The translations under genes and the position numbers were made by a program. Shown here in pieces: positions 13,099 through 33,400 of a DNA stretch of 57,909 nt (the first letter of the stretch is position 1; every line of letters begins with the position of its first letter). The notes under the pieces were generated by a model. The model made no database searches and had not been told where the DNA came from. It saw only the letters and a program-made list of their open reading frames with translations. Source of the stretch: a virus (taxonomy: Duplodnaviria; Caudoviricetes); IMG/VR virus record IMGVR_UViG_3300030430_001633, positions 1-57,909 of that record, one strand, 5' to 3'.

Positions 13099-14136
13099 TT
13101 AAATACCCACTTTGGGTGTTTGCGAACCAAGCATCTGCTCACTATAAAATTCAAGCAAAGTTTTATCAGTGAGCGGGTCGGCAAACCCACCCATAGGCTT
13201 ATCGCCCACTCTTTCCGGCATCGGGTTGTCGCCAAACATAGTAATAAGTGGCCTTGTATCAACGCCTTCAAATACTGATCGTGTAGGTGGAGTGAACACC
13301 CCAACATCTGATTGACTCTGCAGATAATTATCTATCTTGGCACGATTAAGATCTCTTGCTTTATCGCGCTCATACTGCTCCCCAAACATCCTATCCATGC
13401 GAGCATCAAACTCTGCATCAGTCTCTGCGGCATAATCAGGAGGAACAGATGTTGGTCTTGCTGCTATTCTAGTAAAACCACTCGGTGCGATAGTATTAGG
13501 TGTAAACTCTATTTCTGGTATTGGCGCATCATCTGGGCGACCTGTAAACTCGATGGAGGGTATCGTCTCGTTTACCGGAGATGCTGGCTCTGTGGCTGCT
13601 TGATTAGCTGCGAGACGGTTCGCAATAGTTACAGCTAATTGCGATGCCTGAGGCAAGCCAAGAGCTGTTGGCACTGCACTCAATATACCTAATGGGGTTT
13701 TTCTTCCTGGAACCACATTATCATAAACATTTTTTAAAAACGGTTTAGAAGTATCATACCCTATGGCTTTAAGTGCTTTGTCACCCACACTCGGTGAAGT
13801 AATACCAAAGGCCTCTTGTTTATCGCCATAACGATTCGCTAAAATATCTTGGGCATTTTGATTTGTATAGCTGTCCGCAAAAACATTTACGCCAGCATCA
13901 ATATCACGATTAATTTTTTCTACGAGTGCTTCAATGCCTGAAGGCTGGTTACCCTCTGTACGGCTTCCAGGACCGTCTTGCCGACCTCTACCCGCACTAG
14001 ACCTGCTGCTCCTACCTGCGCTGGCGCGGCCTCCCCCTCTACCACCACGGGGTCCTCCCCCACCACGCGAGCTGCTTCTGCCAGAAGGGTCTCTCGCCCT
14101 AGAAGATTCCCTTTCCCCCGCAAAACCGCGTGGCAT
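13099..14136 (-). CDS. Hypothetical protein (disordered RG-rich N-terminus), probably virion
   Basis: 345 aa, coupled to portal stop. Confidence 0.6.
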   Translation of the reverse strand: MPRGFAGERESSRARDPSGRSSSRGGGGPRGGRGGGRASAGRSSRSSAGRGRQDGPGSRTEGNQPSGIEALVEKINRDIDAGVNVFADSYTNQNAQDILANRYGDKQEAFGITSPSVGDKALKAIGYDTSKPFLKNVYDNVVPGRKTPLGILSAVPTALGLPQASQLAVTIANRLAANQAATEPASPVNETIPSIEFTGRPDDAPIPEIEFTPNTIAPSGFTRIAARPTSVPPDYAAETDAEFDARMDRMFGEQYERDKARDLNRAKIDNYLQSQSDVGVFTPPTRSVFEGVDTRPLITMFGDNPMPERVGDKPMGGFADPLTDKTLLEFYSEQMLGSQTPKVGI

Positions 14137-16520
14137 TATTGTCCCCTCTGGTTTTGTTGCTGCCGTTGAATAGCGATCTGCGCTCGCATATTGGCAATAT
14201 CCTCTGTTGAAGCTATGCGCTCACGGGCGATATCAGCATTTTCTTGGCGAGCTTGTGCATCAAGCTGAAGTTTTTGTTGGTCGTTCTGGTTATCCATTTG
14301 CATTTCACGTTCGCGCAATGCCAACTCTTGTTTCTTAATTTCTACCAGCGGGTCACTCTGTGGCTGCGGCGGCTGCTGTTGCTGGAACTCTGCCATAAGC
14401 TGCGCTTGGATTTGTGCAATAGCTGCGGCCTGTGCTTCAGGTGGCTGTTGCTGCATCTGCGGGTTAGTAGCCATTTGTTGTTGATAAACAACTTGCGCCT
14501 TCATACCAATATGCTCGTAGATATGTTTTTCTAACGTCAGCAATATCGGCGGCTGCATTTGCGCTACCCGCGATTGCATATAAGCTAAATGCACAGCGAT
14601 ATGTGCATCATGGTCTTGGTCTGGGAATGCTTGCATTTTACCCTGCCCACCAGCCGCCTGACTGGCAAACTGGTTTTCAGCAGCAGGATCCATCGGCTGT
14701 GGTTGTGGCTCAGGTTTCAAAACCTGCTCAACATTATCTACACCTAATGCTTCGTATACTCGGCGATATGCCTCACGCAAATTGTGCATCTCTGGTGCAG
14801 CGGTAGCTAATTTGAGTTGTTCCTGTGCTAAAACTACCCTTTGTGACATACTGAAGATATTTGGGTCACTCACGGGGATAATATCTACCCGTGCGTCAAA
14901 ATCAGTAGCCTTAATCTGCACATCGGGGCGAACTTCGTATGGATACGGGGTAGGGTCTTCAGCAAATAACCGTGCAAGCATCTTTAATTCTTGTTTCAGG
15001 CTCGTATGCAGCCTTTTATGCACCGCACTTATGATTTTTGCGCCACGTTCTAGTAGTGCGATGGTAGTGCCAACCGGCATCTCTTGTCTGCTATCACCAA
15101 CACCAATATCTGTAGTGCCAATAAATCGTTGGGCAGACTCAATTACAAAACCCATTAGCTGAAACAGTGTGCCAGACGGCTCTTTGTAGGGCAAAGCCAT
15201 CAAACTTGTGCGAATATCGCCTCCAGGGATGTCAATATCCCTAAATTCTCCCGGATGGAGAGGCATTTGTTCATCGGCAATCCGCAACCCGCGAGCTTTA
15301 AATCCTGCTGGCATATTACTCAGCGTTCCAGAGTCAATAAGCTGCCGTAAATTGGCCGTAGCTGTCCTACTCAAGTTTCCAAGCAGGTGAATTAGGCCAA
15401 AACCATAAAAACCAAGTCCTGGAGTGAACTTATATTGAACAAAATGAGGTATTTTCTTCTTCATTTTATCATTTTGTGCAAAATTTCGCCGCACAGACAA
15501 AACTTCGTCACTATCTGCGCTCACTGTGGCGATATAAGGCAGTTTTATGCCTGTTTCTTCATTATCCTCGCCTACATCGGGATATTCTTCAAGGTCTAGA
15601 TAACAATGGCACTCATACAAAGTTACTTCTTCGCTATCACCAGCAGCTTCACGGCCTGATAATTCATCATAAGCCTCGCGCACATCGTCAGTTTCGGTAG
15701 TATTATCGCCTTTTACCTCTAAATCGCGGTAAAAACCGTTTACTTGGAGTTTACGAAGTTCATTTTTTGACATCCGAATGATGTGAGTCACACGTTCTGC
15801 TGATGCCAAATCAGTTGCCGTGTACGGTGCAACAATATCTTCAGCCGGAACAAACTTACTTACCGGCCTACCGAGCACATCATCACGGTAAATTTTCTTA
15901 AAAGCACTGCCACTCAAGCCCAAATAGTAAAGCATCTGGTCATATTCAGGCTCGTATTCTTCCATCTCATACATAATTTGGTAATTCATGTAATCTTGGA
16001 CGCGTTTTGCCTGTGCTTCTACTTCTGGAGTAGCTTCACCAACAATATTTCCGCGCACTGGCCCACCACTGGGCAACATCTCTTTATATGCACCAGCTTG
16101 AAACTGCGTTACAGCTTCATTTAATATGGGGTGGATAACACCAGTAGCACCATCAAACGGTTCAGTACGGTTCTCATACTTCAAACCGAGTAATTCTAAA
16201 CCGTTTGTATAAGTTTCTACCCATTCATCACGGCTAGTCTTATCATCATCAACACTTTGACTCACATAACTAGCAATATCAGCTAATGTATCATCACTCA
16301 GTGAATCTACCAGATTGCCATAAAAATCATCTGGCTCTTCACCCACTGGGCTATCTTTACCAAAAACTACCTCTACACCACCTTCTTCAGACGGCTCAAC
16401 TGTAATTTCTAAAAAATCTGCTTCTTTCTCAAGCAGGGCATCTTCTACACCACTAAAGGTATCATCAGGGGCTTGGATTAAAGAACGGTCAATGTTACTC
16501 GGGCGCGGGTTTGTTGCCAT
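14136..16520 (-). CDS. Portal protein
   Basis: 794 aa directly after TerL; LPSGGPV, LSGSAFKK, PGLGFYGFGL, LRQLIDSGTL; Gln-rich coiled-coil C-terminus. Confidence 0.85.
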   Translation of the reverse strand: MATNPRPSNIDRSLIQAPDDTFSGVEDALLEKEADFLEITVEPSEEGGVEVVFGKDSPVGEEPDDFYGNLVDSLSDDTLADIASYVSQSVDDDKTSRDEWVETYTNGLELLGLKYENRTEPFDGATGVIHPILNEAVTQFQAGAYKEMLPSGGPVRGNIVGEATPEVEAQAKRVQDYMNYQIMYEMEEYEPEYDQMLYYLGLSGSAFKKIYRDDVLGRPVSKFVPAEDIVAPYTATDLASAERVTHIIRMSKNELRKLQVNGFYRDLEVKGDNTTETDDVREAYDELSGREAAGDSEEVTLYECHCYLDLEEYPDVGEDNEETGIKLPYIATVSADSDEVLSVRRNFAQNDKMKKKIPHFVQYKFTPGLGFYGFGLIHLLGNLSRTATANLRQLIDSGTLSNMPAGFKARGLRIADEQMPLHPGEFRDIDIPGGDIRTSLMALPYKEPSGTLFQLMGFVIESAQRFIGTTDIGVGDSRQEMPVGTTIALLERGAKIISAVHKRLHTSLKQELKMLARLFAEDPTPYPYEVRPDVQIKATDFDARVDIIPVSDPNIFSMSQRVVLAQEQLKLATAAPEMHNLREAYRRVYEALGVDNVEQVLKPEPQPQPMDPAAENQFASQAAGGQGKMQAFPDQDHDAHIAVHLAYMQSRVAQMQPPILLTLEKHIYEHIGMKAQVVYQQQMATNPQMQQQPPEAQAAAIAQIQAQLMAEFQQQQPPQPQSDPLVEIKKQELALREREMQMDNQNDQQKLQLDAQARQENADIARERIASTEDIANMRAQIAIQRQQQNQRGQ

Positions 16521-17983
16521 CAGTAATATATCCTTTGCACAGGAACAGCTTCATCTTCTTCATAATCTTCGGGGTGCTGTATAAATCCACCCTCTCTAAA
16601 TCTGCGTAAGGCTTGGGTAACTGTGTCAACGTAATCGTCGTGCTCTCCCGCAGGAAACGCCGCACACTCTTCTACGACTTCTTCTGCCCAACGTGTATCC
16701 GGAGCCCATACTAAACCACTTTCAAACAACGGCGCAATAGAGTTGACTCTTGTAAACTTATCGTTACCTCTACTCGGCGTATAATTCATCACAGGTATAC
16801 CCATATTGCGTAATTCTTGAGTAAGCGGCATACCACTGGCTTTTGCTTCAATCAATACACACTCTGGTTCCCAATACTTATACTCATCTAAAGCTAATCG
16901 CCGTAGCTCGGGGAAGTCCCACCTACCACGTTTAGCATCAACTAGAATAATGTTTGGTGGTCCACCTTCCTCTGGGTGGAAAACACCCCATGTGGTAATC
17001 GCACTGTAATCAGCAGTCTCTTTTTTACTAAACGCTGTATCATAAGACTGCATCACATATTCTAAACGTGGGATATCTTCTTTCTGCCACACCTGCCACC
17101 AATCACGTTTCAGTATCGCGGCAACATCGCCAGTAGGGTTCTGCTGCCATTGGGCTTCCCATTTACCTACTGACAAACTTCCCTTAACAGAAAGCAAATC
17201 TTCCTTTTTCCAAAACTCAGGCCAGAGGGGGTCATCACTCTCAGGCATCAAAGCAGGAAACTCTACTACTTCCCACTTATCTGCCAGTATATCTCTACCC
17301 TGCTGCTTTATCAATTTGCCCGTTAAATCATTCTCTGCCCAACGGGTCATAATTATTACGATAGCACCTCCCGGCTGCAAACGCTGGCGCGGCCCTGATG
17401 TATACCATTCATAAGCATGTTCTAATGCTGTGGGGCTAAGTGCATCTTGTTCACTGTGCGGGTCATCAATAATCAACAAATCCGCTCCACGACCCGTCAC
17501 CGCACCACCTACACCAGCCGCAAAATACTCTCCACCCTTACTAGTCTCCCATCGGCCAGCAGCTTGGCTGTCAGCGCGTAACTCTACTCCACTAAAAATT
17601 TTTGTATATTCTGCAGAGTTCATCAAATTACGCACCTTACGACCAAACCTAAAAGCCAACTCAGCCGTGTGCGTTGTCTGCATTATCTTTAAACGTGGGT
17701 TCTTACCCATCAACCAACTCGGCAATAAGTAACTGCCAAATTCACTCTTAGTATGGCGCGGGGGCATATTCACAATTAACCGCTTTAAATCCCCACTGGC
17801 TATGCGGTTAAACTTCTCAGCCATAATCTTATGGTGGCGGCCATTTATAAACTCAGGCCAAACCATTTTTACATACTGCATAAAATCATTCTGGCTGGCC
17901 TCTGCTTGGCTAATCTCTTTTGCACGGTCTAATAAATGGGCGTACTTCTTTAATTGCTCTTCAGGGACTAGCTGAATGTCCAT
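16520..17983 (-). CDS. terL: Terminase large subunit
   Basis: NMPPRHTKS Walker A, LLIIDDP Walker B, MTRW, SYDTA nuclease, HDDYVD. Confidence 0.95.
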   Translation of the reverse strand: MDIQLVPEEQLKKYAHLLDRAKEISQAEASQNDFMQYVKMVWPEFINGRHHKIMAEKFNRIASGDLKRLIVNMPPRHTKSEFGSYLLPSWLMGKNPRLKIMQTTHTAELAFRFGRKVRNLMNSAEYTKIFSGVELRADSQAAGRWETSKGGEYFAAGVGGAVTGRGADLLIIDDPHSEQDALSPTALEHAYEWYTSGPRQRLQPGGAIVIIMTRWAENDLTGKLIKQQGRDILADKWEVVEFPALMPESDDPLWPEFWKKEDLLSVKGSLSVGKWEAQWQQNPTGDVAAILKRDWWQVWQKEDIPRLEYVMQSYDTAFSKKETADYSAITTWGVFHPEEGGPPNIILVDAKRGRWDFPELRRLALDEYKYWEPECVLIEAKASGMPLTQELRNMGIPVMNYTPSRGNDKFTRVNSIAPLFESGLVWAPDTRWAEEVVEECAAFPAGEHDDYVDTVTQALRRFREGGFIQHPEDYEEDEAVPVQRIYY

Positions 17984-18200
17984 AAACTAAGGTTCCTCAA
18001 TAAAGCGAATATTTTATAAATATATCGAAAATTTTTCAAGGGCAATGAACCTATGACGTTTCAGCATCAACAGGGGTACGTCATCTCGGCTTTTGATCGA
18101 GTAGGGTCAATATCCTGAAACTTTTTTGTTATCACACGATTTGTCCAAAACTTGGCTATACACCGAGGTACAGCCAAGGGGACGGTCTCGCGGGGGCCAC

Positions 18201-18226
18201 AAAAAAAGCCCCGCGCTAGGCGGGGC
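18201..18226 (-). terminator. Intrinsic terminator of GA/TC-free gene
   Basis: gccccgc/gcggggc stem, T7 tail on minus strand. Confidence 0.85.
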
Positions 18227-18265
18227 CAAGGTGGCGGGGGTACCCTAGGCACCCCCGCGCTGCGG

Positions 18266-18709
18266 TTACTTGGTAGGCTGGGGCTGCGCTACCAGTTTAA
18301 CGTAGCCAGTGCCCCATACCGCGCTGCTAGGGCTGTAGCCGCCGTTAAGCAAAGCCAGCAGGCAAATTGGCTTTTTGCTGCTGTGGCCTAGCGGCTTAGC
18401 TGCGGCCAATATTGCGGCAAGGCTATTATTGCCGTTAACACCGTTAAGCAGCCAGCCCTGTATTGTGGCGCGCACGCCACCGGCCTTGCCGTTAAAGCCA
18501 AACGGTACAGGCTGCGGCTGGTCAAGCTGCACGTTTGGCAGCGGCACAACTTGCACATTATGCAGGTTGCCGCCCGCGTGCTGCTGCACAAACTGCCAAA
18601 TGCAAGCGTAGGTTAACTCGTTACCTGTGTGTTGCAGGGTTGCAGCCTTAACGGTGGCTGCTTTAACCGTGGCCTTTTGGGTGGCCTTACCCTTTTTAGC
18701 GTTTTGCAT
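18266..18709 (-). CDS. Hypothetical basic protein, paralogue A (GA/TC-depleted gene; only 1 Asp + 1 Glu)
   Basis: Own promoter, AGAAAGG RBS and terminator; clearly homologous to 19138-19557. Confidence 0.8.
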   Translation of the reverse strand: MQNAKKGKATQKATVKAATVKAATLQHTGNELTYACIWQFVQQHAGGNLHNVQVVPLPNVQLDQPQPVPFGFNGKAGGVRATIQGWLLNGVNGNNSLAAILAAAKPLGHSSKKPICLLALLNGGYSPSSAVWGTGYVKLVAQPQPTK

Positions 18710-18763
18710 TTTACAAGCCTTTCTTTGCTGTAATGCAGGTAAGCGTTATTGCTTACAATTTTT

Positions 18764-18791
18764 ATTATAAGCATTTAAAAGTCAATAACAA
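18764..18791 (-). promoter_or_regulatory. Sigma70-like promoter of paralogue A
   Basis: TTGTTA-N16-TATAAT on minus strand, AT-rich upstream. Confidence 0.55.
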
Positions 18792-19104
18792 CCCCCTAAC
18801 CTAACTTTTTTTAATTTTTATTAACGAGAAAATGCCAAGACATATTAGCATCAGTATCAGTATCCACATCGCGCTGCTCCTTTGTTTGCGTTGCTATTTC
18901 TGTGGCAGTTCAGAACATTCCTGACCAATCCTATTTTGTTCGCCAAAATCCTCTAAAATCTTCACGCTGCGCGACGATGATTGATGACGACCGATGATAC
19001 ATCTAGAGGGACATTGATTGATATATATAGACTTAGGCCTATATATATCGGTCTTCGTCTAGGATGGGAGTCATCATCCTTCCTCCTCAACGATGGTCCT
19101 CGGT

Positions 19105-19130
19105 GAAAGGGGACGCCCGTGGACGTCCCC
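19105..19130 (-). terminator. Probable terminator of paralogue B
   Basis: ggggacg/cgtcccc stem followed by short TTTC on minus strand. Confidence 0.5.
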
Positions 19131-19137
19131 CCGATTG

Positions 19138-19557
19138 TTAACCTTTGACTACCAGCTTGACGAACGGAGTCATCCAGTATTTGCTAGACGGTGAATATCC
19201 ACCGTGCATCAAGGCGTGTAGGCAGACTGGCTTTTTGCGCGAGTGTCCTAATGGTGCTGCCTTATTGAGTGCTGCCTTTAGCGACGTGTCGCCGTCTACA
19301 CCAAACAACATCCAATCTTGGATGGTCTGGCGTACACCACCCGGACGTCCACCATAACCAAAGGGGACGGGCTGCACGGACTCCTTGTCAACATTGTCTA
19401 GCGGCACAATGTGGACGTTCGCCTCGTTACCGCCAGCGTGCTCTTGGACGAATTGCCAGATCTGGTCGTACGAGATCTCTGCATCGGTGACAAGGAGCTC
19501 AGCTGATTTAACGACAGCTTTGGCGGTGGACTTTTTAACAGATTTTTTAGCAGTCAT
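19138..19557 (-). CDS. Hypothetical basic protein, paralogue B (normal Asp/Glu)
   Basis: IWQFVQEHAGGN, QPVPFG, GGVR.TIQ.W, PLGHS.KKP.CL, GGYSPSS shared with paralogue A; AGAAAGGA RBS. Confidence 0.8.
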   Translation of the reverse strand: MTAKKSVKKSTAKAVVKSAELLVTDAEISYDQIWQFVQEHAGGNEANVHIVPLDNVDKESVQPVPFGYGGRPGGVRQTIQDWMLFGVDGDTSLKAALNKAAPLGHSRKKPVCLHALMHGGYSPSSKYWMTPFVKLVVKG

Positions 19558-19606
19558 GACATGTCCTTTCTACGACATCTCTATAAGCACCATTGCTTAT
19601 GAGTAT

Positions 19607-19649
19607 AGAGTAGCACCTAGGATTTTTATTGACAAGTCATTAATTGTCA
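19607..19649 (-). promoter_or_regulatory. Promoter with GAYAA-N8-TTRTC palindrome
   Basis: TGACAA-gtcattaa-TTGTCA at 19630-19649; -10-like TACTCT 17 bp downstream on minus strand. Confidence 0.6.
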
Positions 19650-19769
19650 AAAAACATCAGCGTCATCATCTATCATCATCAGGTCTGCGAATCCTCGTAA
19701 ATCGTCAGCCGACAATGATTGAGGAAGATTGATGAGTTGACTCTGGACAGAAGATGATTGATGACAAAA

Positions 19770-20210
19770 CTAGACTTCGTCCTCCCTTGTGATGGGAGAT
19801 GAGGATGATAAAATATGATTGATGGCCCCCGCCCAATCGTAAGGAATCCCTGAGCTCCAGTCAGGGGACAATGGTCCGTCTTTCTCTGTCTGTCCTGCTA
19901 TCTCCATGGCCCTAGAACCGTGAAATATATTTATAGTTCGGGAAGAAGGATGACCAACCAAGTTCCAGACATTACCAGATTGTCCGCTATATCTTATCTG
20001 CCAAGCAATTTGATGAGGACGAAGTGCGATCTTGTTTAGTGAGTTTAACCTATGGACCTTCAGCTCAAGCCAAAAAGCATAGCCGTCAAGTATGCCGTGC
20101 AAGTCAGGTACTCCAGGACTAGACCAAGACTCTAGGCGCGTCCAAAACACGCCTAGCTCCTTAGTTCCCTCACGGAGATTTTTCCACAATGTGGACTCTG
20201 GTTTACTCAC
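19770..20210 (-). CDS. VRR-NUC / Holliday junction resolvase-like PD-(D/E)XK nuclease
   Basis: E...GVPDL...WLELK...LRPHQIAW. Confidence 0.8.
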   Translation of the reverse strand: MSKPESTLWKNLREGTKELGVFWTRLESWSSPGVPDLHGILDGYAFWLELKVHRLNSLNKIALRPHQIAWQIRYSGQSGNVWNLVGHPSSRTINIFHGSRAMEIAGQTEKDGPLSPDWSSGIPYDWAGAINHILSSSSPITREDEV

Positions 20211-20416
20211 CGCAAACCAAGCCGACGCTGCTCTGCTTTGCTCATCGGAAACGACTCACAGATCTGTTCGCCGTCGCGCGTGATACGGATGTAGTGCTTG
20301 TAGAGATTTGTCTCAGCATACTCAAAAGCCTTTCCCTCATCCTTAAATCCAGCCACATACGCCCAGTCATCTGTAGACGCGTGGTATTTCTCAATGGTGT
20401 AAAATCCTGGTTGCAT
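20207..20416 (-). CDS. Hypothetical early protein
   Basis: CTCGTAGAAAGGAG RBS. Confidence 0.7.
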   Translation of the reverse strand: MQPGFYTIEKYHASTDDWAYVAGFKDEGKAFEYAETNLYKHYIRITRDGEQICESFPMSKAEQRRLGLR

Positions 20417-20452
20417 CTGTCTGCTCCTTTCTACGAGCGTTGTTACAATAAT

Positions 20453-20495
20453 AAAGTAACAAAGGGGACAATCAATGACACCCCCTTTGTTGTCT
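20453..20495 (-). promoter_or_regulatory. Promoter with palindromic box
   Basis: TGACAC-N8-TTGTCT at 20476-20495; TACTTT 17 bp downstream. Confidence 0.5.
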
Positions 20496-20502
20496 TGTTG
20501 TG

Positions 20503-27290: not shown

Positions 27291-27815
27291 CTATGGTGTT
27301 AAACTATTATGATTCAGCACCGCCTCTACTGGTTTAAATTCTTCATCACCAGAAAACTTTTCGTAAAGATATTCAACTCCAGTTTCCATAATCCTTTTCA
27401 TCTGTGGGTTGCCCCCAGAGTGACGTTTAGTGTAGAGCACGAGCTCTAACATATCTGCCATTTTAAGTCTTCGTTGCTCTTCTAGGGTGAGCACGAACAC
27501 CAAACCTAACTCTTCTAATACTTTTTGTTCTGCTTTTTCAAAGGCTTGTTTTATTTCAGGGTAATCCCACTTAGCAGTGGCAGGTGTATCACCCAAAATT
27601 AATTCTGGTACGTCGTGATACAACGCAGCCATTATTAATTGCTTGCTGCTATCAGGCCATAGTTGATCTATCAAAACACTTACTGCATATGAATGTGCTC
27701 CCACGGTTTGCCTTTCTGATTGCATCGCAACCGTATGATATCGTAATAAAAACTGTGCATCCCAAACAGCGGATATAGTCTTAATTTTTTGTATTGTGTT
27801 GCATTTCTGTGCCAC
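27291..27815 (-). CDS. HD-domain deoxynucleotide hydrolase (YfbR-like)
   Basis: RYH...QTVGAHSY...ALYHD.PE...GD.P...K...KMADMLE. Confidence 0.8.
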   Translation of the reverse strand: MAQKCNTIQKIKTISAVWDAQFLLRYHTVAMQSERQTVGAHSYAVSVLIDQLWPDSSKQLIMAALYHDVPELILGDTPATAKWDYPEIKQAFEKAEQKVLEELGLVFVLTLEEQRRLKMADMLELVLYTKRHSGGNPQMKRIMETGVEYLYEKFSGDEEFKPVEAVLNHNSLTP

Positions 27816-29866: not shown

Positions 29867-30200
29867 TCTTTACCCTCAGCGACATCTCAGCTTCTACGAG
29901 GAAAAGATACCTGCGTAAATCCCGTATGTCGTCTAGTATACCTTCTTCACGGGTATCTTTAGATATAGCAGCAAACACATCGTAATGGTGTTCGTTTACT
30001 TGCTTTTCTAGCCTGTCCCACTTACGCGCCAGCATCATAAACGCACCCACACCGCCGCGCTGTTTCCAGCTATCGCCGTAAGATTGCTCAGCTTCTTGGA
30101 GCTTTACTGTATCCAAACTAGCAAGAACATCTACTTGCCGGATAATTTCACTGGGTTGGTCTTTCATTTTATCTTTCATGTATTGCTCGTGCCTTTTCAC
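29844..30200 (-). CDS. MazG-like all-alpha nucleotide-modification-associated protein
   Basis: K......YGDSW..RG..G......RKWDRL, D...DL..YL.L; next to the TS homologue. Confidence 0.6.
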   Translation of the reverse strand: MKRHEQYMKDKMKDQPSEIIRQVDVLASLDTVKLQEAEQSYGDSWKQRGGVGAFMMLARKWDRLEKQVNEHHYDVFAAISKDTREEGILDDIRDLRRYLFLVEAEMSLRVKNESGKRK

Positions 30201-31174
30201 CTCAATCTCCTATCTAGCCATTCCATACAAGCCTTACGCCATGCACGGTCACCTATAGAATGAGCATGGTAATATGCGCTTGTATAATTTTTTGCTTTCC
30301 AGCAACGCCAAGATAATCTCATCTGGGCGCAGGTATCACCTAAGTAAGTGTTCTCATATTCCAGCCTATCTATATCTTCAAACCATTCTAGTAATTCTTT
30401 GTCAAAGGTAGAAGGCTCATCAATCAAAGCAGGTGGCGTATATTTCAAGCCGTCTTCACTCAAAGTAAGGTAAGGCTCATATTGCGGCTGCATACCGTCT
30501 AGTTTTTTAAGCACATCTACATATGCGTGTAGATTATTACTGAACTGATAATAGTTACCTATGCCGTATCCAAGCATCCCTGCCATGTATTCTAACAAGA
30601 CAGACATATGCACAGCATTTGCACCAAACGCTCCCCAGATCATATCGTTACTGCGATTGCACACAGTCATATGCAAATCTTCATCGCGCTCCCAAAACAT
30701 AATCTGCGTATTACAGGGATAATCTTTACCATCGTTAGTTTCAACTAAGTCTTGGCGTGGATCCCACATACCAACCACAACTCTGCGATCATTAGGATAA
30801 GTGCTCAACCTAAACAATGCTTTTTGTAACTGATCTTTGCCGAACCAGTTACGCCACCTATATCCATATGCACCGTGAAAAGTCACCCCATCATCGCTGT
30901 AGGTGTTCATCCTGCCGTTAAACTGGCTAATCCAATCCACATCGTTACGCCCTGCCAACATCCACAAGCTCTCCATCAAGTGGAAATACGGGTTAGCATC
31001 GCGCTCATGGTAAAACAGCACTCGCTCACGGCTGTGGGTGTAAGTAGTTGTCACAGGTGTAGGGAACTCTAAGGCAGCACCGTTACGAGTTTGCACCTCT
31101 ACACCACTGCTTTCAATACCTTGCTTGGCTAGATAAAGGGCCTCACTTACCCCACGAGCATTAATTGATTGCAT
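30197..31174 (-). CDS. Thymidylate synthase homologue, probable dUMP hydroxymethylase
   Basis: NPYFHLMESLWMLAGRND, GAYG.R, D.PC (catalytic Cys), RSND..WG..GAN (Asn favours dUMP), NLHAY. Confidence 0.8.
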   Translation of the reverse strand: MQSINARGVSEALYLAKQGIESSGVEVQTRNGAALEFPTPVTTTYTHSRERVLFYHERDANPYFHLMESLWMLAGRNDVDWISQFNGRMNTYSDDGVTFHGAYGYRWRNWFGKDQLQKALFRLSTYPNDRRVVVGMWDPRQDLVETNDGKDYPCNTQIMFWERDEDLHMTVCNRSNDMIWGAFGANAVHMSVLLEYMAGMLGYGIGNYYQFSNNLHAYVDVLKKLDGMQPQYEPYLTLSEDGLKYTPPALIDEPSTFDKELLEWFEDIDRLEYENTYLGDTCAQMRLSWRCWKAKNYTSAYYHAHSIGDRAWRKACMEWLDRRLR

Positions 31175-31232: not shown

Positions 31233-32507
31233 CTAAGATGCTCGAGCGGGGTCTGCAGACCTAATGCCGAAAAACTCGAGGTTCTTGTGGCACCTTTGCA
31301 TAGCCAATGTGTCAGGAGTACCTACGCTTAATCCATTCGTATCCATTACTAAGTCAACATACTCTTGTGCTACATTCCGCATATCAAAACGCTTTAGGAG
31401 TTCTAGGTTGTTTTCCTTTATCCTGAGCCACTGGTTCTTATCATGTATGGCTTTATCAATAATATCAGCAAACAGGAAAGGCTGAGCTTCAGCAGGTATT
31501 TGGATGAAGTTTTGCCCTGCCTTAAATATCTCACTGTTTTTCATGCCCCAATCTGTAGCGACAGGTACCGCACCACAGATGATTGCTTCTACAGTAGTCC
31601 GGTTAAAATGTGCGCCGAACTTAGAATACTTTTTACTGTAACTCGGGTCAATCTGTAGCTTGACTGTTTTTAGTATCTCAAACACTTTGTCATTAGTTAC
31701 CGTACCTAAATGCTCCATACCAAAACGCTTGGCTCTGTCCCATATGCGGTCGCCAGTTTCATCAAAGTATTTTGGTTTGCACTTATCTGGGCTAGTCATG
31801 TAGCGGTACTCAATGCCTTCTCCACCAATGAGCTTGCGCTCACTGTTGGTCATATATCTTATGGCACGAACTAATGTGTCTACACGCTTCCAAGCCTTAA
31901 ATACTTGGATAGCTGCAAACCCATCACGTTTTTCAAAGTCAGTCCAACCATCGGCACCGCTTATATCAAAAGGGTTAACAATCAACTTGCGCGGTATGGG
32001 CAGCATGTCGCCAGAGTGCATGGCAGATTCATGAACGCAGACTGCCGCATGAAAGTTGTGCTTTTGGTAGATCAAATGCGGGTAAAGCTCAGGCAGGTTA
32101 CCATCATGAATGATGGCTATGTTTTTACTGCCGTGGTCGTACAAATCTAGCCAATCTTGGACATCCTTATTTTCCTTATTCAAGGTTGGCACAGGGATGT
32201 GCCACAGCACGGCGTCATACTTGCTGCACTTCTGCTTAAACATATCCCTTTGGTATTTTGATTTGTACGGAACTTTAGGCATTCCTACCCAACCCCTAGC
32301 TTGATGGTGGGGGTATCCGGTGCCTACCTTACGGTATTGATCAAAGTTTTTAGGAGGTGTAAACCTACCGATTATTTTTTCTTTAGGCACGAGCATGGTA
32401 AAGTCAACCTCGTGGCCTAATTCTTTTAAACCTTTTGCAAGATACTCTGCGTGGTTAATTATCCCACCATAATCCTGTATCTGATACATTGTCATAAGAA
32501 ACTTCAT
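31233..32507 (-). CDS. GT-B fold glycosyltransferase
   Basis: GGIINH...LAKGLKELGHEV, IIHD, WKRVD.LVRA, DPS...FN.T.VEAI..G.VPV.TD. Confidence 0.8.
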   Translation of the reverse strand: MKFLMTMYQIQDYGGIINHAEYLAKGLKELGHEVDFTMLVPKEKIIGRFTPPKNFDQYRKVGTGYPHHQARGWVGMPKVPYKSKYQRDMFKQKCSKYDAVLWHIPVPTLNKENKDVQDWLDLYDHGSKNIAIIHDGNLPELYPHLIYQKHNFHAAVCVHESAMHSGDMLPIPRKLIVNPFDISGADGWTDFEKRDGFAAIQVFKAWKRVDTLVRAIRYMTNSERKLIGGEGIEYRYMTSPDKCKPKYFDETGDRIWDRAKRFGMEHLGTVTNDKVFEILKTVKLQIDPSYSKKYSKFGAHFNRTTVEAIICGAVPVATDWGMKNSEIFKAGQNFIQIPAEAQPFLFADIIDKAIHDKNQWLRIKENNLELLKRFDMRNVAQEYVDLVMDTNGLSVGTPDTLAMQRCHKNLEFFGIRSADPARAS

Positions 32508-33400
32508 TCTACGGCTCCTTGTGGTACTTCATTAAATAAGTCTGGCTTGTAGACGCTACGCGGTCGCCCTTGGCCTAACCTTACACGTTCGTACTTGTCC
32601 CATTCGCATAAGCTATGTTCAATAGTACGCATATCCACTTGATCAAGTGGCACATGGGGCATGATGTAAAACGGGGCCGTTGATAACAACTTACGCATGA
32701 AGTCATTTGCCACAGCTTGCGTCATACCTTTTTTAAGAGGGTTACCTAATATTCGGTTTAGTCCTCGTATAGCTCCCGGCCCAGCGTTCGCCCAGCTATT
32801 ACGGTCTTTTGCCGATGATAGTACAGGCGTGTAATTGAGGTCCGTAACGACCTCGTATGACATAAAACCTCCCCCTCCCCATCCCCGATAGGCACCCATC
32901 GCCTCATGTAAGGCTTGGAGCGACTGCGTGGTTTGGGCAATCTGCGCCAACGCTTCTTTGTTTTCCCAGATAGGGGCAAGAAAATGGTCAACCACTACCT
33001 CTGACTTTGGTAACTTGAGTCCTTGGTTAGTGATTATATATGCACCAGTAAACGTCCGTAAGCCCTGTTCAATGCGAGAGTTTATCAGGTCTTTAGTAAA
33101 TGTCGGGTTAAACTCTTGCGACCAGCCGTGTTGCTCGGCAAACTCACTGGTGCCAATCATACGAAACAAACAACAATTAAATATAATCTCACCGTGGGGA
33201 CGGTTGTGGTTAGGGTCTGTCCAGTTTTCCCGCATCCACACAGTAACCCTATCGTTCTCACGGAACGGGTTTGTAAATTTAAACTCTTGTAAGATGGGGT
33301 CATCTGTCCATGGAGCAGAAGCACCCGACCTCCTGCGTAGGTAGATCGAGTGCCTCTCATTAATCCACCCGAAGTAACTTTCTATAGCTTCGGTGAGCAT
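32504..33400 (-). CDS. 5-hmdU DNA kinase-like protein (aGPT-Pplase1 family)
   Basis: ERH.IY.RR..G...PWTDDPILQ.FKFTN.FRE.DR.T, FTGAY, FM.YE...DL.Y, GPGA.RGL, IEH.LCE.DKY.R. Confidence 0.8.
   Translation of the reverse strand: MLTEAIESYFGWINERHSIYLRRRSGASAPWTDDPILQEFKFTNPFRENDRVTVWMRENWTDPNHNRPHGEIIFNCCLFRMIGTSEFAEQHGWSQEFNPTFTKDLINSRIEQGLRTFTGAYIITNQGLKLPKSEVVVDHFLAPIWENKEALAQIAQTTQSLQALHEAMGAYRGWGGGGFMSYEVVTDLNYTPVLSSAKDRNSWANAGPGAIRGLNRILGNPLKKGMTQAVANDFMRKLLSTAPFYIMPHVPLDQVDMRTIEHSLCEWDKYERVRLGQGRPRSVYKPDLFNEVPQGAVE

What the first reader, a model, noticed from the sequence alone, without database searches (positions are those of the whole stretch)
18190..18825. An entire transcription unit almost free of the GA/TC dinucleotide
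Seen: in about 636 nt covering promoter, leader, ORF and terminator I count 0 GA and only 4 TC on the + strand (18522, 18618, 18722, 18782). Naive expectation is roughly 1/16 per dinucleotide, i.e. several tens. Three of the four survivors coincide with constrained positions (the single Asp codon, the single Glu codon and the AGAAAGG RBS); the fourth is a TTGAC in the promoter region. Ser is coded only by AGY. TT, CT, AG and CG are common, so the bias is specific. Inference: strong selection to keep this locus invisible to something recognising TC/GA: the phage's own thymine hypermodification, or a host defence such as DarT-type ADP-ribosylation of TNTC or GA/TC-containing restriction sites.
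Basis: partly seen in the sequence, partly recalled or inferred. Interest (0 to 1): 0.92.

Follow-up and report, generated by a model that had tools for sequence, protein, structure and literature searches.

The report
Phage gene cassette purged of GA/TC
A marine phage that carries thymine-modification genes keeps one small self-contained gene almost free of the DNA steps GA and TC, giving up nearly all acidic amino acids in its protein, most likely so that an enzyme acting at that step cannot touch it.

Summary
Window 18189-18825 holds 0 GA and 4 TC on the + strand, against about 70-79 expected. The longest GA/TC-free gap is 334 nt; elsewhere in the window the longest is 50 nt. Amino-acid and codon composition do not explain it (0 of 20,000 resamples).

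The island is a promoter-to-terminator cassette for gene A (147 aa, minus strand). A is a paralogue of the compositionally normal neighbour B.

The B-then-A pair recurs in more than 100 uncultured marine phage contigs. Of 102 distinct A sequences:
- 65 are depleted in both GA and TC
- 14 in GA only
- 7 in TC only
- 16 in neither

B is normal in 80 of 85.

Every long relative carries a 5-hmdU DNA kinase. This scan has noted similar islands on other phage DNA before.

My best reading, at 0.4: the cassette avoids the TC target of the phage's own thymidine hypermodification and so stays unmarked DNA.

Three results argue against that reading and keep host single-strand-targeting immunity as a live rival, for example CmdT-type ADP-ribosylation of mRNA at GA:
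- depletion can affect one strand only
- cassettes are swapped between near-identical phages
- near-identical kinases occur with undepleted alleles

The function of A/B is unknown.

The parts
18189..18825 (.). GA/TC-depleted island: 0 GA and 4 TC on the + strand
   Evidence: counts and gaps; nulls
18266..18709 (-). Gene A, 147 aa. Paralogue of B (59% identity). It has 1 Asp and 1 Glu. On the coding strand GA = 2 and TC = 0.
   Evidence: AlphaFold model pLDDT 85.7. No family or fold match.
18764..18791 (-). Sigma-70-like promoter, TTGTTA-16-TATAAT (10 of 12 matches). The surviving TTGAC 'GA' lies in its spacer.
   Evidence: a consensus scan only
18739..18756 (-). Palindrome GTAAGC-N6-GCTTAC directly after the -10 hexamer. 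Read as a 5'-terminal mRNA stem-loop. The stem covaries in relatives, with G-U pairs.
   Evidence: 89% of cells paired, 3 of 7 pairs changed on both sides, covariation score 0.317 against a shuffled mean of 0.200 (2 of 500 shuffles reach it).
18718..18726 (-). Ribosome-binding site AAAGAAAGG, holding one of the three sense-strand GA in the predicted transcript. In GA = 0 alleles of relatives it reads AGTAAAGGGG.
18200..18227 (-). Intrinsic terminator: 8-bp stem (7 G-C pairs) followed by a T run. The island ends about 11 nt beyond it, at a conserved GAGAC.
18234..18258 (-). GC-rich hairpin between the stop codon and the terminator (GCGGGGG...CCCCCGC)
   Evidence: read; the same element appears in relatives
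19138..19557 (-). Gene B, 139 aa. The compositionally normal paralogue (24 GA, 26 TC, 12 Asp+Glu), with its own promoter-like site and the same kind of 5' palindrome (19584-19599).
32504..33400 (-). 5-hmdU DNA kinase (PF18723, E = 5.8e-50)
   Evidence: Homologues found in 13 of 15 related records searched.
31233..32507 (-). GT-B/GT1-like protein beside the kinase; candidate transferase of the modification
   Evidence: PF00534, E = 1e-6. Homologue found in 4 of 5 relatives.
30197..31174 (-). Thymidylate-synthase-like protein; candidate dUMP hydroxymethylase
27291..27815 (-). HD-domain YfbR-like nucleotidase or dNTPase

Best explanation
The phage replaces thymine with 5-hydroxymethyluracil during replication and then hypermodifies a subset of these bases, chosen by dinucleotide context. 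I infer that the context here is the T of 5'-TC-3'.

Gene A is a duplicate of gene B. Its whole transcribed unit has been rewritten by selection so that neither strand offers a TC. This meant Ser coded by AGY only, no NTC codons, no T|C or G|A codon junctions, and almost no Asp or Glu. As a result this roughly 600-bp unit stays ordinary, unmarked DNA inside an otherwise marked genome.

The likely benefits are two:
- Host RNA polymerase can read the unit freely from the incoming genome.
- Readers or nucleases that depend on the modification have nothing to act on within it.

A, a basic and probably DNA-binding protein, would then be made early and reliably.

What is shown: the purge itself, its conservation, the paralogy, and the presence of modification genes.

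What is inferred: that the DNA is modified at all, that TC is the context, that the island is unmodified, and what the benefit is.
For: 1. The purge acts at nucleotide level and is specific to GA/TC.

2. The two avoided dinucleotides are reverse complements of each other, as expected for one mark read on either DNA strand. Of 102 distinct A alleles, 65 are depleted in both. Eleven or more alleles reach 0/0, with GA/TC-free gaps of 610-626 nt.

3. In GA-low alleles, 205 of 251 remaining GA are Asp or Glu codons. Only unavoidable sites survive.

4. The window encodes a TS-like enzyme, a 5-hmdU DNA kinase, a GT-B-like protein and an HD nucleotidase next to a family A DNA polymerase.

5. The kinase was found in 13 of 15 related records that carry the A/B pair (3 of 5, 5 of 5 and 5 of 5). 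The two records without it are fragments, 48% and 33% complete.

6. Literature:
- 5-hmdU is converted 'in sequence-specific contexts' (PMC8989533, passages).
- Restriction-resistant sites of M6, ViI and phiW-14 contain TG or TC (PMC6449724, abstract and passages).
- A strict dinucleotide target for a phage DNA modification has been shown for iggy DpdA, at GA (PMC10484667, abstract).
- Host nucleases that sense hypermodified DNA exist, and hypermodified phages encode inhibitors of them (PMC12191111, abstract and passages).

7. One distant homologue, P0199, fuses an A/B-like domain (hhalign probability 97.9%) to an HNH_2 nuclease domain. This fits a DNA-directed role for the domain.
Against: 1. 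The depletion is separable by strand. Fourteen of 102 alleles are GA-low only (for example 0 GA with 16-23 TC) and 7 are TC-low only. A mark with symmetric effects on duplex DNA does not predict this.

2. Relatives with the same modification genes carry undepleted alleles: G006, G007 and G008. The kinase of G004 (A allele 2 GA / 5 TC) is 93% identical to those of G006 and G007 (11/23 and 10/26).

3. L010 and L016 are 95-100% identical in their flanks but only 62-73% identical across the roughly 750-nt cassette. The state is swapped between near-identical phages, which suggests a variable external pressure.

4. In several independent depleted alleles (L047, L086, L103, L106, L114), GA or TC occurs inside the promoter although the roughly 600 transcribed nt have none or almost none.

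5. TG/CA is not avoided, although the published inference for M6, ViI and phiW-14 is TG or TC.

6. The two cultured kinase-bearing phages I scanned, M6 and PhiJL001, have no such island (0 of 2).

7. terL and the next gene avoid TC on the coding strand only, with GA normal. This reading does not explain that.

8. No chemical or sequencing evidence of modification was available.
Confidence: 0.4

Rival explanations
1. A stealth message. Selection acts on the mRNA, not on the DNA. The A transcript has been purged of GA and of UC so that host immunity enzymes with dinucleotide specificity for single-stranded RNA cannot disable it. One known example is the CmdT-type ADP-ribosyltransferase, which modifies A in GA and blocks translation; a second, unknown activity would act at UC. 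A, an anti-defence or back-up copy of B, could then still be translated when all other messages are blocked.
For: - The depleted zone matches the predicted transcript, from the 5' hairpin just after the -10 hexamer to the terminator. The promoter is often not depleted.
- GA and TC depletion are separable (14 GA-only and 7 TC-only alleles of 102). Sense-strand GA avoidance is the more general of the two (79 of 102 alleles).
- In GA = 0 alleles even the ribosome-binding site has lost its GA.
- The transcript carries a covarying 5' stem-loop and 3' hairpins, typical of a stabilised message.
- The cassette is swapped between near-identical phages, and its state is independent of the kinase clade.
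- CmdT modifies N6 of A in GA within ssRNA, does not act on dsRNA, and blocks translation (PMC11618068, abstract and sections).
Against: - It needs a second, unknown agent for UC whose specificity happens to be the reverse complement of GA. My search for one found none.
- A single immune message helps only if its product neutralises or bypasses the defence, and this is unshown.
- It does not predict the association with kinase-bearing phages (13 of 15 records).
- The window's own allele keeps a GA in its ribosome-binding site.
- In some alleles (L048-L056) the purge extends about 190 nt upstream, through the mini-ORF and the promoter.
Confidence: 0.25
2. Evasion of a host enzyme that acts on DNA at TC when a strand is single-stranded, during transcription or replication. 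Candidates are a DarT-like thymidine ADP-ribosyltransferase, a TC-specific cytosine deaminase, or a TC-specific ssDNA nuclease.
For: - A single specificity read on either strand explains the reverse-complement pair, and it allows strand-specific alleles.
- A strand-specific avoidance of coding-strand TC extends through terL and the next gene and fades with distance.
- DarT modifies T in TNTC (Thermus) or in TCT/TTT (EPEC) on ssDNA (PMC5179494 and PMC7003065, passages).
Against: - TNTC is not preferentially avoided among surviving TC sites.
- TTT is abundant in the island (TT = 70).
- No enzyme with plain TC specificity is known from my searches.
- The island is GC-richer than the genome (53-60% against 45%), and Ser has switched from TCN to AGY. 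Neither is the signature of simple C-to-T hypermutation.
- Why only this cassette is fully purged would still need a special role for A.
Confidence: 0.1
3. Self-site avoidance. A and B are DNA-binding proteins that recognise the phage's modified TC sites and coat or silence the DNA. Gene A lacks those sites so that its own product and B cannot occlude it.
For: - A Lys/Ala-rich N-terminal tail and weak winged-helix-like structural resemblance (Z up to 5.1).
- Fusion of an A/B-like domain to an HNH nuclease in P0199.
- Co-occurrence of the A/B pair with the kinase.
Against: - DNA binding is not shown. Fold matches are below the level the tool calls meaningful.
- It faces the same problems of strand separability and allele polymorphism as the best explanation.
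Confidence: 0.08
4. The bias is a by-product. Either the function requires an acid-free, basic protein, or the region has an unusual local base or codon composition or foreign origin.
For: - Forty-two of 93 representatives of the wider family have at most 1.2% Asp+Glu.
- The island is GC-richer than its flanks.
Against: - Given the actual acid-poor protein, 27.4 GA+TC are still expected and 2 are seen (0 of 20,000 resamples).
- Junctions and non-coding flanks are purged too.
- Ser, Ile, Phe, Val and Leu all avoid TC-containing codons, while C-ending codons are otherwise preferred.
Confidence: 0.02

Closest known systems
Context-dependent thymidine hypermodification from 5-hmdU (Pseudomonas phage M6, Salmonella phage ViI, Delftia phage phiW-14, PaMx11)
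   Same: The gene set is similar: a TS-like hydroxymethylase, a 5-hmdU DNA kinase (35% identical to that of M6), an HD hydrolase and a family A polymerase. In those phages only part of the T is modified, in a sequence-dependent way.
   Different: No modification-free island has been described for them, and I found none in M6 or PhiJL001. Their inferred context is TG or TC, whereas here only TC/GA is avoided. The partner of the kinase here is GT1-like and did not match an amino-acid:DNA transferase family.
Avoidance of short motifs by phages (restriction-site avoidance; PAM depletion, e.g. PMC12174588, seen in a search listing only)
   Same: The sequence is rewritten so that a nucleic-acid-directed enzyme finds no site.
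   Different: Those cases are genome-wide, partial and concern 3-6-nt motifs. This one is local (a single transcription unit), complete, concerns a dinucleotide, and is paid for with the loss of two amino acids and a dedicated gene duplicate.
CmdTAC (mRNA ADP-ribosylation at GA; PMC11618068)
   Same: It is a defence whose target is exactly the dinucleotide GA in single-stranded RNA. Sense-strand GA is the component most generally avoided in A alleles.
   Different: No phage message lacking GA is described there (the terms 'GA-free' and 'lacking GA' have 0 occurrences). CmdT does not account for UC/TC avoidance. The host of this phage is unknown.
DarTG (ssDNA thymidine ADP-ribosylation at TNTC or TCT/TTT; PMC5179494, PMC7003065)
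   Same: It is a defence that acts on a T next to a C in single-stranded DNA.
   Different: A preference for avoiding TNTC was tested here and not seen. TTT is not avoided.
Dinucleotide-specific phage DNA modification: iggy DpdA, dPreQ0 at GA (PMC10484667)
   Same: It shows that a phage DNA-modifying enzyme can have a strict two-base target that involves GA/TC.
   Different: It is a guanine modification made by a transglycosylase. I found no deazaguanine genes among the ORFs I scanned, but the scan was not exhaustive.
Modification-dependent nucleases and their phage inhibitors (END nucleases and anti-END; PMC12191111)
   Same: They give a reason why a hypermodified phage might need a gene that such nucleases cannot touch and that is expressed at once.
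   Different: A and B show no detected similarity to anti-END proteins. This was not tested directly, and no such role is shown.

Membership tests
5-hmdU-derived thymidine hypermodification system | dUMP hydroxymethylase (a thymidylate-synthase homologue) | tested here: met
   30197-31174: PF00303 E = 9.9e-21; phrog_5131 E = 1.6e-103. Hydroxymethylase as opposed to methylase activity is not distinguishable by these tools.
5-hmdU-derived thymidine hypermodification system | 5-hmdU DNA kinase | tested here: met
   32504-33400: PF18723 E = 5.8e-50, above the cut-off.
5-hmdU-derived thymidine hypermodification system | Transferase that displaces the phosphate (amino-acid:DNA transferase / aGPT-Pplase) | tested here: inconclusive
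   The neighbour 31233-32507 matches only Glycos_transf_1 (E = 1e-6) and no PHROG. One relative, G010, lacks a homologue.
5-hmdU-derived thymidine hypermodification system | Modified base present in virion DNA, and its sequence context | not testable with these tools
   Only Logan contigs of DNA runs were available. No raw reads, no native-DNA signal.
Motif avoidance against a nucleic-acid-directed enzyme | The motif is significantly under-represented against composition- and codon-preserving nulls | tested here: met
   0 of 20,000 resamples; 86 of 102 alleles are depleted in GA, TC or both.
Motif avoidance against a nucleic-acid-directed enzyme | A cognate enzyme with that specificity exists in the phage or its host | not testable with these tools
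   The host is unknown, and the specificity of the kinase is unknown.
Evasion of CmdT-type mRNA ADP-ribosylation | No GA in the single-stranded parts of the message | tested here: inconclusive
   The window allele keeps 3 sense GA in its predicted transcript (RBS, E31, D63). At least 24 alleles have 0 GA in the coding sequence, and several of them have a GA-free RBS.
Evasion of DarT (TNTC) | Avoidance concentrated on TC sites preceded by TN | tested here: not met
   T at -2 in 23% of 77 surviving TC sites in TC-low alleles, against 16% of 831 sites in undepleted alleles. In terL plus the next gene, ATC, CTC, GTC and TTC are all reduced (ratios 0.45-0.64).
Any curated protein family, for A and B | A match to a Pfam, PHROG or PDB-sequence profile | tested here: not met
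   0 families in Pfam and PHROGs. 0 PDB sequences at E <= 10. No match in cultured phages or in genome contigs.
Winged-helix DNA-binding domains | Fold similarity | tested here: inconclusive
   VIA-align best Z = 5.1. Fur, PerR, BlaI and RRE-type winged helices score Z = 3.1-3.7. Foldseek E > 4 in both the PDB and BFVD libraries.

The most novel reading that the evidence does not exclude
Gene A is a 'pioneer' unit that the phage deliberately keeps free of its own DNA mark. The A/B domain is a reader of hypermodified thymine. The phage uses it to shield its marked DNA from host modification-dependent nucleases that are built on the same domain (the P0199-type HNH fusion).

The unmarked, self-contained cassette guarantees that this shield is made first, from DNA that those nucleases and readers cannot see. 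The strand-specific and swapped alleles record an arms race with different host sensors.

If this is right, dinucleotide-free islands would be a general sequence-only marker. They would reveal both the existence and the target context of a phage DNA modification.
Probability: 0.15. Interest if true: 0.95.

Novelty: new variant of a known kind. Interest (0 to 1): 0.85.

Why it matters
A gene has been rewritten so thoroughly that a dinucleotide disappears from both strands of its whole transcription unit, and two of the twenty amino acids disappear from its protein. This state is kept across more than 80 diverged alleles, which makes it an unusually clean natural signature of selection on the nucleic acid itself.

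If the avoided step is the target of the phage's own thymine modification, such islands would let one read the sequence context of an unmeasured DNA modification from sequence alone. They would also point to the gene the phage most needs expressed from unmarked DNA.

If instead the agent is host immunity acting on single strands, the alleles (GA-only, TC-only, both) are a natural catalogue of dinucleotide-specific defences. A would then be a candidate counter-defence protein.

Either way, the B (normal) and A (purged) pair is a ready-made experimental contrast.

My four literature searches on this point returned no paper that describes such a cassette.

Tried and rejected
- DNA similarity to cultured phages: none for 17000-20500 or for the island. 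tblastn with B: none.
- Families for A and B: none in Pfam or PHROGs. PDB profile search: 0 hits.
- Fold searches: Foldseek on PDB and BFVD gave nothing at E <= 0.001. VIA-align wide gave Z <= 5.1.
- ESM Atlas: only unnamed viral clusters. DUF3489 at 0.75 is chance level.
- Genome-contig scan: 7 pattern matches, none of them a relative.
- RNAalifold on the 23-sequence leader alignment predicted no pairs, because several rows were misaligned. I then counted my own named hairpin on a 13-sequence subset of those 23, chosen because they aligned in register. The 10 dropped rows have hairpins of other lengths.
- Codon- or tRNA-level explanation: rejected, because junctions and non-coding flanks are purged too.
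- Simple TC-to-TT hypermutation: considered unlikely. The island is GC-rich and Ser has switched from TCN to AGY.
- Sequencing runs: no RNA holder was listed, and all 20 runs are DNA kept as contigs.
- Laying 4 of the 20 runs gave no usable depth comparison. In X8 the contig over 17234-20188 has word depth 24, against 13.1 and 12.3 for its neighbours. That contig is 2.9 kb long, and collapse of strains could explain the depth. I draw nothing from it.
- Viral scans with the distant acid-free members P0207, P0146 and P0192 found no relatives. Their DNA could therefore not be examined. The nucleotide-level purge is shown only for members reached.
- Rows dropped before the count: ORFs shorter than 400 nt, ORFs without ATG or a stop codon, ORFs containing N, minus-strand hits, and exact duplicates. 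This reduced 142 A-type ORFs to 102 distinct sequences, and 122 B-type ORFs to 85.
- One of the 93 profile hits, P0204, is a cadherin-repeat protein and probably spurious.
Full report
**The observation**

On the + strand of 18189-18825 there are 0 GA and 4 TC (18522, 18618, 18722, 18782). The stretch's own base composition predicts 79, and the genome-wide rate about 70. GA/TC-free gaps of 334, 104, 96 and 60 nt lie side by side here. The longest gap elsewhere in the 57,909-nt window is 50 nt. None of the other nine strand-symmetric dinucleotide classes shows an anomalous gap. The island is GC-richer (53-60%) than its flanks (about 42-45%).

**Anatomy**

The island is a self-contained unit on the minus strand. 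In order it holds:
- a promoter-like site, TTGTTA-16-TATAAT (18791->18764)
- a palindrome, GTAAGC-N6-GCTTAC (18756->18739), directly after the -10 hexamer
- a ribosome-binding site, AAAGAAAGG
- gene A (18709->18266, 147 aa)
- a GC-rich hairpin
- an intrinsic terminator (stem 18227->18207 plus a T run)

The island ends about 11 nt beyond the T run, at a GAGAC that is conserved in relatives. The four surviving sites are the only Asp codon, the only Glu codon, the RBS and a TTGAC in the promoter spacer.

Gene A is 59% identical to gene B (19557->19138, 139 aa). B has 24 GA, 26 TC and 12 Asp+Glu. Both paralogues are conserved: 44 invariant columns across 25 A and B sequences.

**Chance and composition are excluded**

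- Resampling synonymous codons for the actual A protein with genome codon usage gives 27.4 +/- 4.1 GA+TC. Two are observed (0 of 20,000 as low).
- Permuting A's own codons gives about 18 (0 of 20,000 as low), so codon junctions are purged.
- The two non-coding flanks have 2 against 12.1 and 0 against 7.4 (all).
- A prefers C-ending codons (0.59-0.84) except after T, where the count is 0 of 14. Ser is AGC 6 of 6.

**What the phage is**

The window is a 98%-complete uncultured virus record. It has no DNA match in cultured phages. It encodes a terminase, a family A polymerase, a TS-like enzyme, a 5-hmdU DNA kinase (PF18723), a GT1-like protein, an HD nucleotidase and Pam3-like proteins. Its kinase is about 35% identical to those of M6-like phages and PhiJL001. 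It therefore belongs with thymidine-hypermodifying siphoviruses. No chemistry is available.

**Relatives**

A first IMG/VR scan gave 27 loci, all with B upstream and A downstream wherever both ends were present. On the coding strand of A:
- 13 of 27 have TC = 0 with GA 0-5. Four of these have no GA/TC for 610-626 nt.
- 3 are intermediate.
- 1 has 0 GA but 17 TC.
- 10 are near normal.

Wider scans added 79 IMG/VR loci and 80 metagenome loci. They reach A-type genes only 45-55% identical to the window's that are still 0/0 or 1/0, each behind a normal B.

After filtering and removing duplicates, I tested 102 distinct A sequences and 85 distinct B sequences against codon resampling based on B codon usage.
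- A: 65 are low in both GA and TC, 14 in GA only, 7 in TC only, 16 in neither.
- B: 80 are low in neither.

In depleted alleles the GA count equals the Asp+Glu count almost everywhere. In GA-low alleles, 205 of 251 remaining GA are Asp or Glu codons.

A tree rooted with B shows undepleted alleles both at the base of the A clade and nested inside depleted clades.

**The cassette is exchanged**

L010 (2 GA / 5 TC) and L016 (9/22) are 95-100% identical on both sides. They are only 62-73% identical over about 750 nt covering the promoter and A.

**Limits of the purge**

In independent depleted alleles the transcribed part (5' hairpin to terminator) has none, or only the RBS GA. GA or TC does occur inside the promoter spacers of L047, L086, L103, L106 and L114. 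In another group (L048-L056) the purge extends about 190 nt further upstream, through a small ORF.

The 5' palindrome is an RNA-type hairpin. Its stem sequences differ between alleles and include G-U pairs. On 13 aligned leaders, 89% of cells pair, 3 of 7 pairs change on both sides, and the covariation score is 0.317 against a shuffled mean of 0.200 (2 of 500 shuffles reach it). Slid controls score at most 0.123.

**Link to the modification genes**

The kinase was found in 13 of 15 related records searched. The two misses are fragments. But:
- Records with undepleted A (G006-G008) have the kinase as well.
- G004's kinase (depleted A) is 93% identical to those of G006 and G007 (undepleted A).
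- M6 and PhiJL001 have a kinase but neither an A/B homologue nor an island.

**The protein**

The AlphaFold model is confident (pLDDT 85.7), but no fold or sequence relative with a known function was found. Only weak winged-helix-like resemblance appears (Z <= 5.1).

A profile search found 93 representative clusters. Of these, 42 have at most 1.2% Asp+Glu, so acid-free members make up almost half of a wider family.

One member, P0199, joins an A/B-like domain (hhalign probability 97.9%) to an HNH_2 nuclease domain. It is a single sequence.

**Weighing the readings**

For a DNA-level mark:
- The two avoided steps are reverse complements of each other.
- Most alleles lose both.
- The phage group carries the thymidine-hypermodification genes.
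- Published work infers T followed by G or C as the modified context in M6, ViI and phiW-14 and shows a strict GA context for another phage modification.

Against it, and for an agent acting on single strands (RNA or ssDNA):
- strand separability
- the transcript-shaped boundary
- cassette swapping
- independence from the kinase clade

CmdT shows that a defence aimed at GA in mRNA exists. DarT shows one aimed at T-N-T-C or T-C-T in ssDNA, but I saw no TNTC bias.

I commit to the own-modification reading at 0.4. The mRNA-level reading gets 0.25, the ssDNA-level reading 0.1, and self-site avoidance 0.08.

**Earlier notes of this scan**

Earlier notes report similar GA/TC-free, acid-free cassettes in other thymine-modifying phages. 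I could not test those notes. They influenced my choice of first-ranked explanation. They also gave me two papers, which I then read.

Noticed in passing
window 14136-17983 (terL 16520-17983 and the next gene, 14136-16520): These two genes avoid TC on the coding strand only. terL has 23 TC against 63 expected (z = -6.2) and the next gene 65 against 109 (z = -5.8), while GA is normal. The avoidance is specific to TC: xTC codons make up 0.17 against 0.34 genome-wide, Ser is TCN:AGY 6:18 against 568:408, and T|C junctions number 9 against 30.9 expected. It fades with distance from A, with only 1 TC in the first 300 nt of terL. It is present in relatives whatever the state of A.
   Followed up: partly
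window 18801-18869 (minus strand): A 22-codon ORF with its own GGAG, between B and A, encodes a hydrophobic peptide with a basic tail. Similar mini-ORFs occupy the same place in relatives. In some (L048-L056) the GA/TC-free zone includes it.
   Followed up: partly
window 18977-19825 (minus strand): The motif TCATCAATCAT occurs 12 times in the window at up to 1 mismatch, against 1.45 expected. Six of these flank gene B on the minus strand, in spacers that are among the GA/TC-richest stretches of the genome (41 GA+TC in 19601-19800, against a mean of about 22 per 200 nt). TC-rich repeats also precede the cassettes of relatives (L087, L091, L103).
   Followed up: partly
window 19584-19599 and 18740-18755: The only two exact TAAGC-N6-GCTTA palindromes in the window sit at the same position in the leaders of B and A. 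Covariation in relatives points to an RNA hairpin and not a fixed operator.
   Followed up: yes
window 31233-33400; record G010: The kinase is paired with a GT1-like protein, which did not match an amino-acid:DNA transferase family. One relative with the closest kinase (84% identity) lacks a homologue of this protein.
   Followed up: partly
proteins P0121-P0213: The Asp+Glu content of the wider family is bimodal: 42 of 93 representatives have at most 1.2%, and most others have 4-13%. Arg is also rare in the acid-poor members.
   Followed up: partly
protein P0199: A 420-aa protein joins an A/B-like domain (residues 55-193) to an HNH_2 endonuclease domain (313-366). It is a singleton cluster on a 9.7-kb contig.
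   Followed up: partly
loci L063, L073 and relatives, downstream of A: Instead of a T-run terminator, these alleles have long C-rich tracts (runs of CCCC interrupted by A or T) before the conserved GAGAC boundary.
   Followed up: no
window 17234-20188, run X8: The Logan contig covering the 5' part of terL, A, B and the next gene has word depth 24. Its two neighbouring contigs have 13.1 and 12.3. This is unexplained; collapse of strains could account for it.
   Followed up: no
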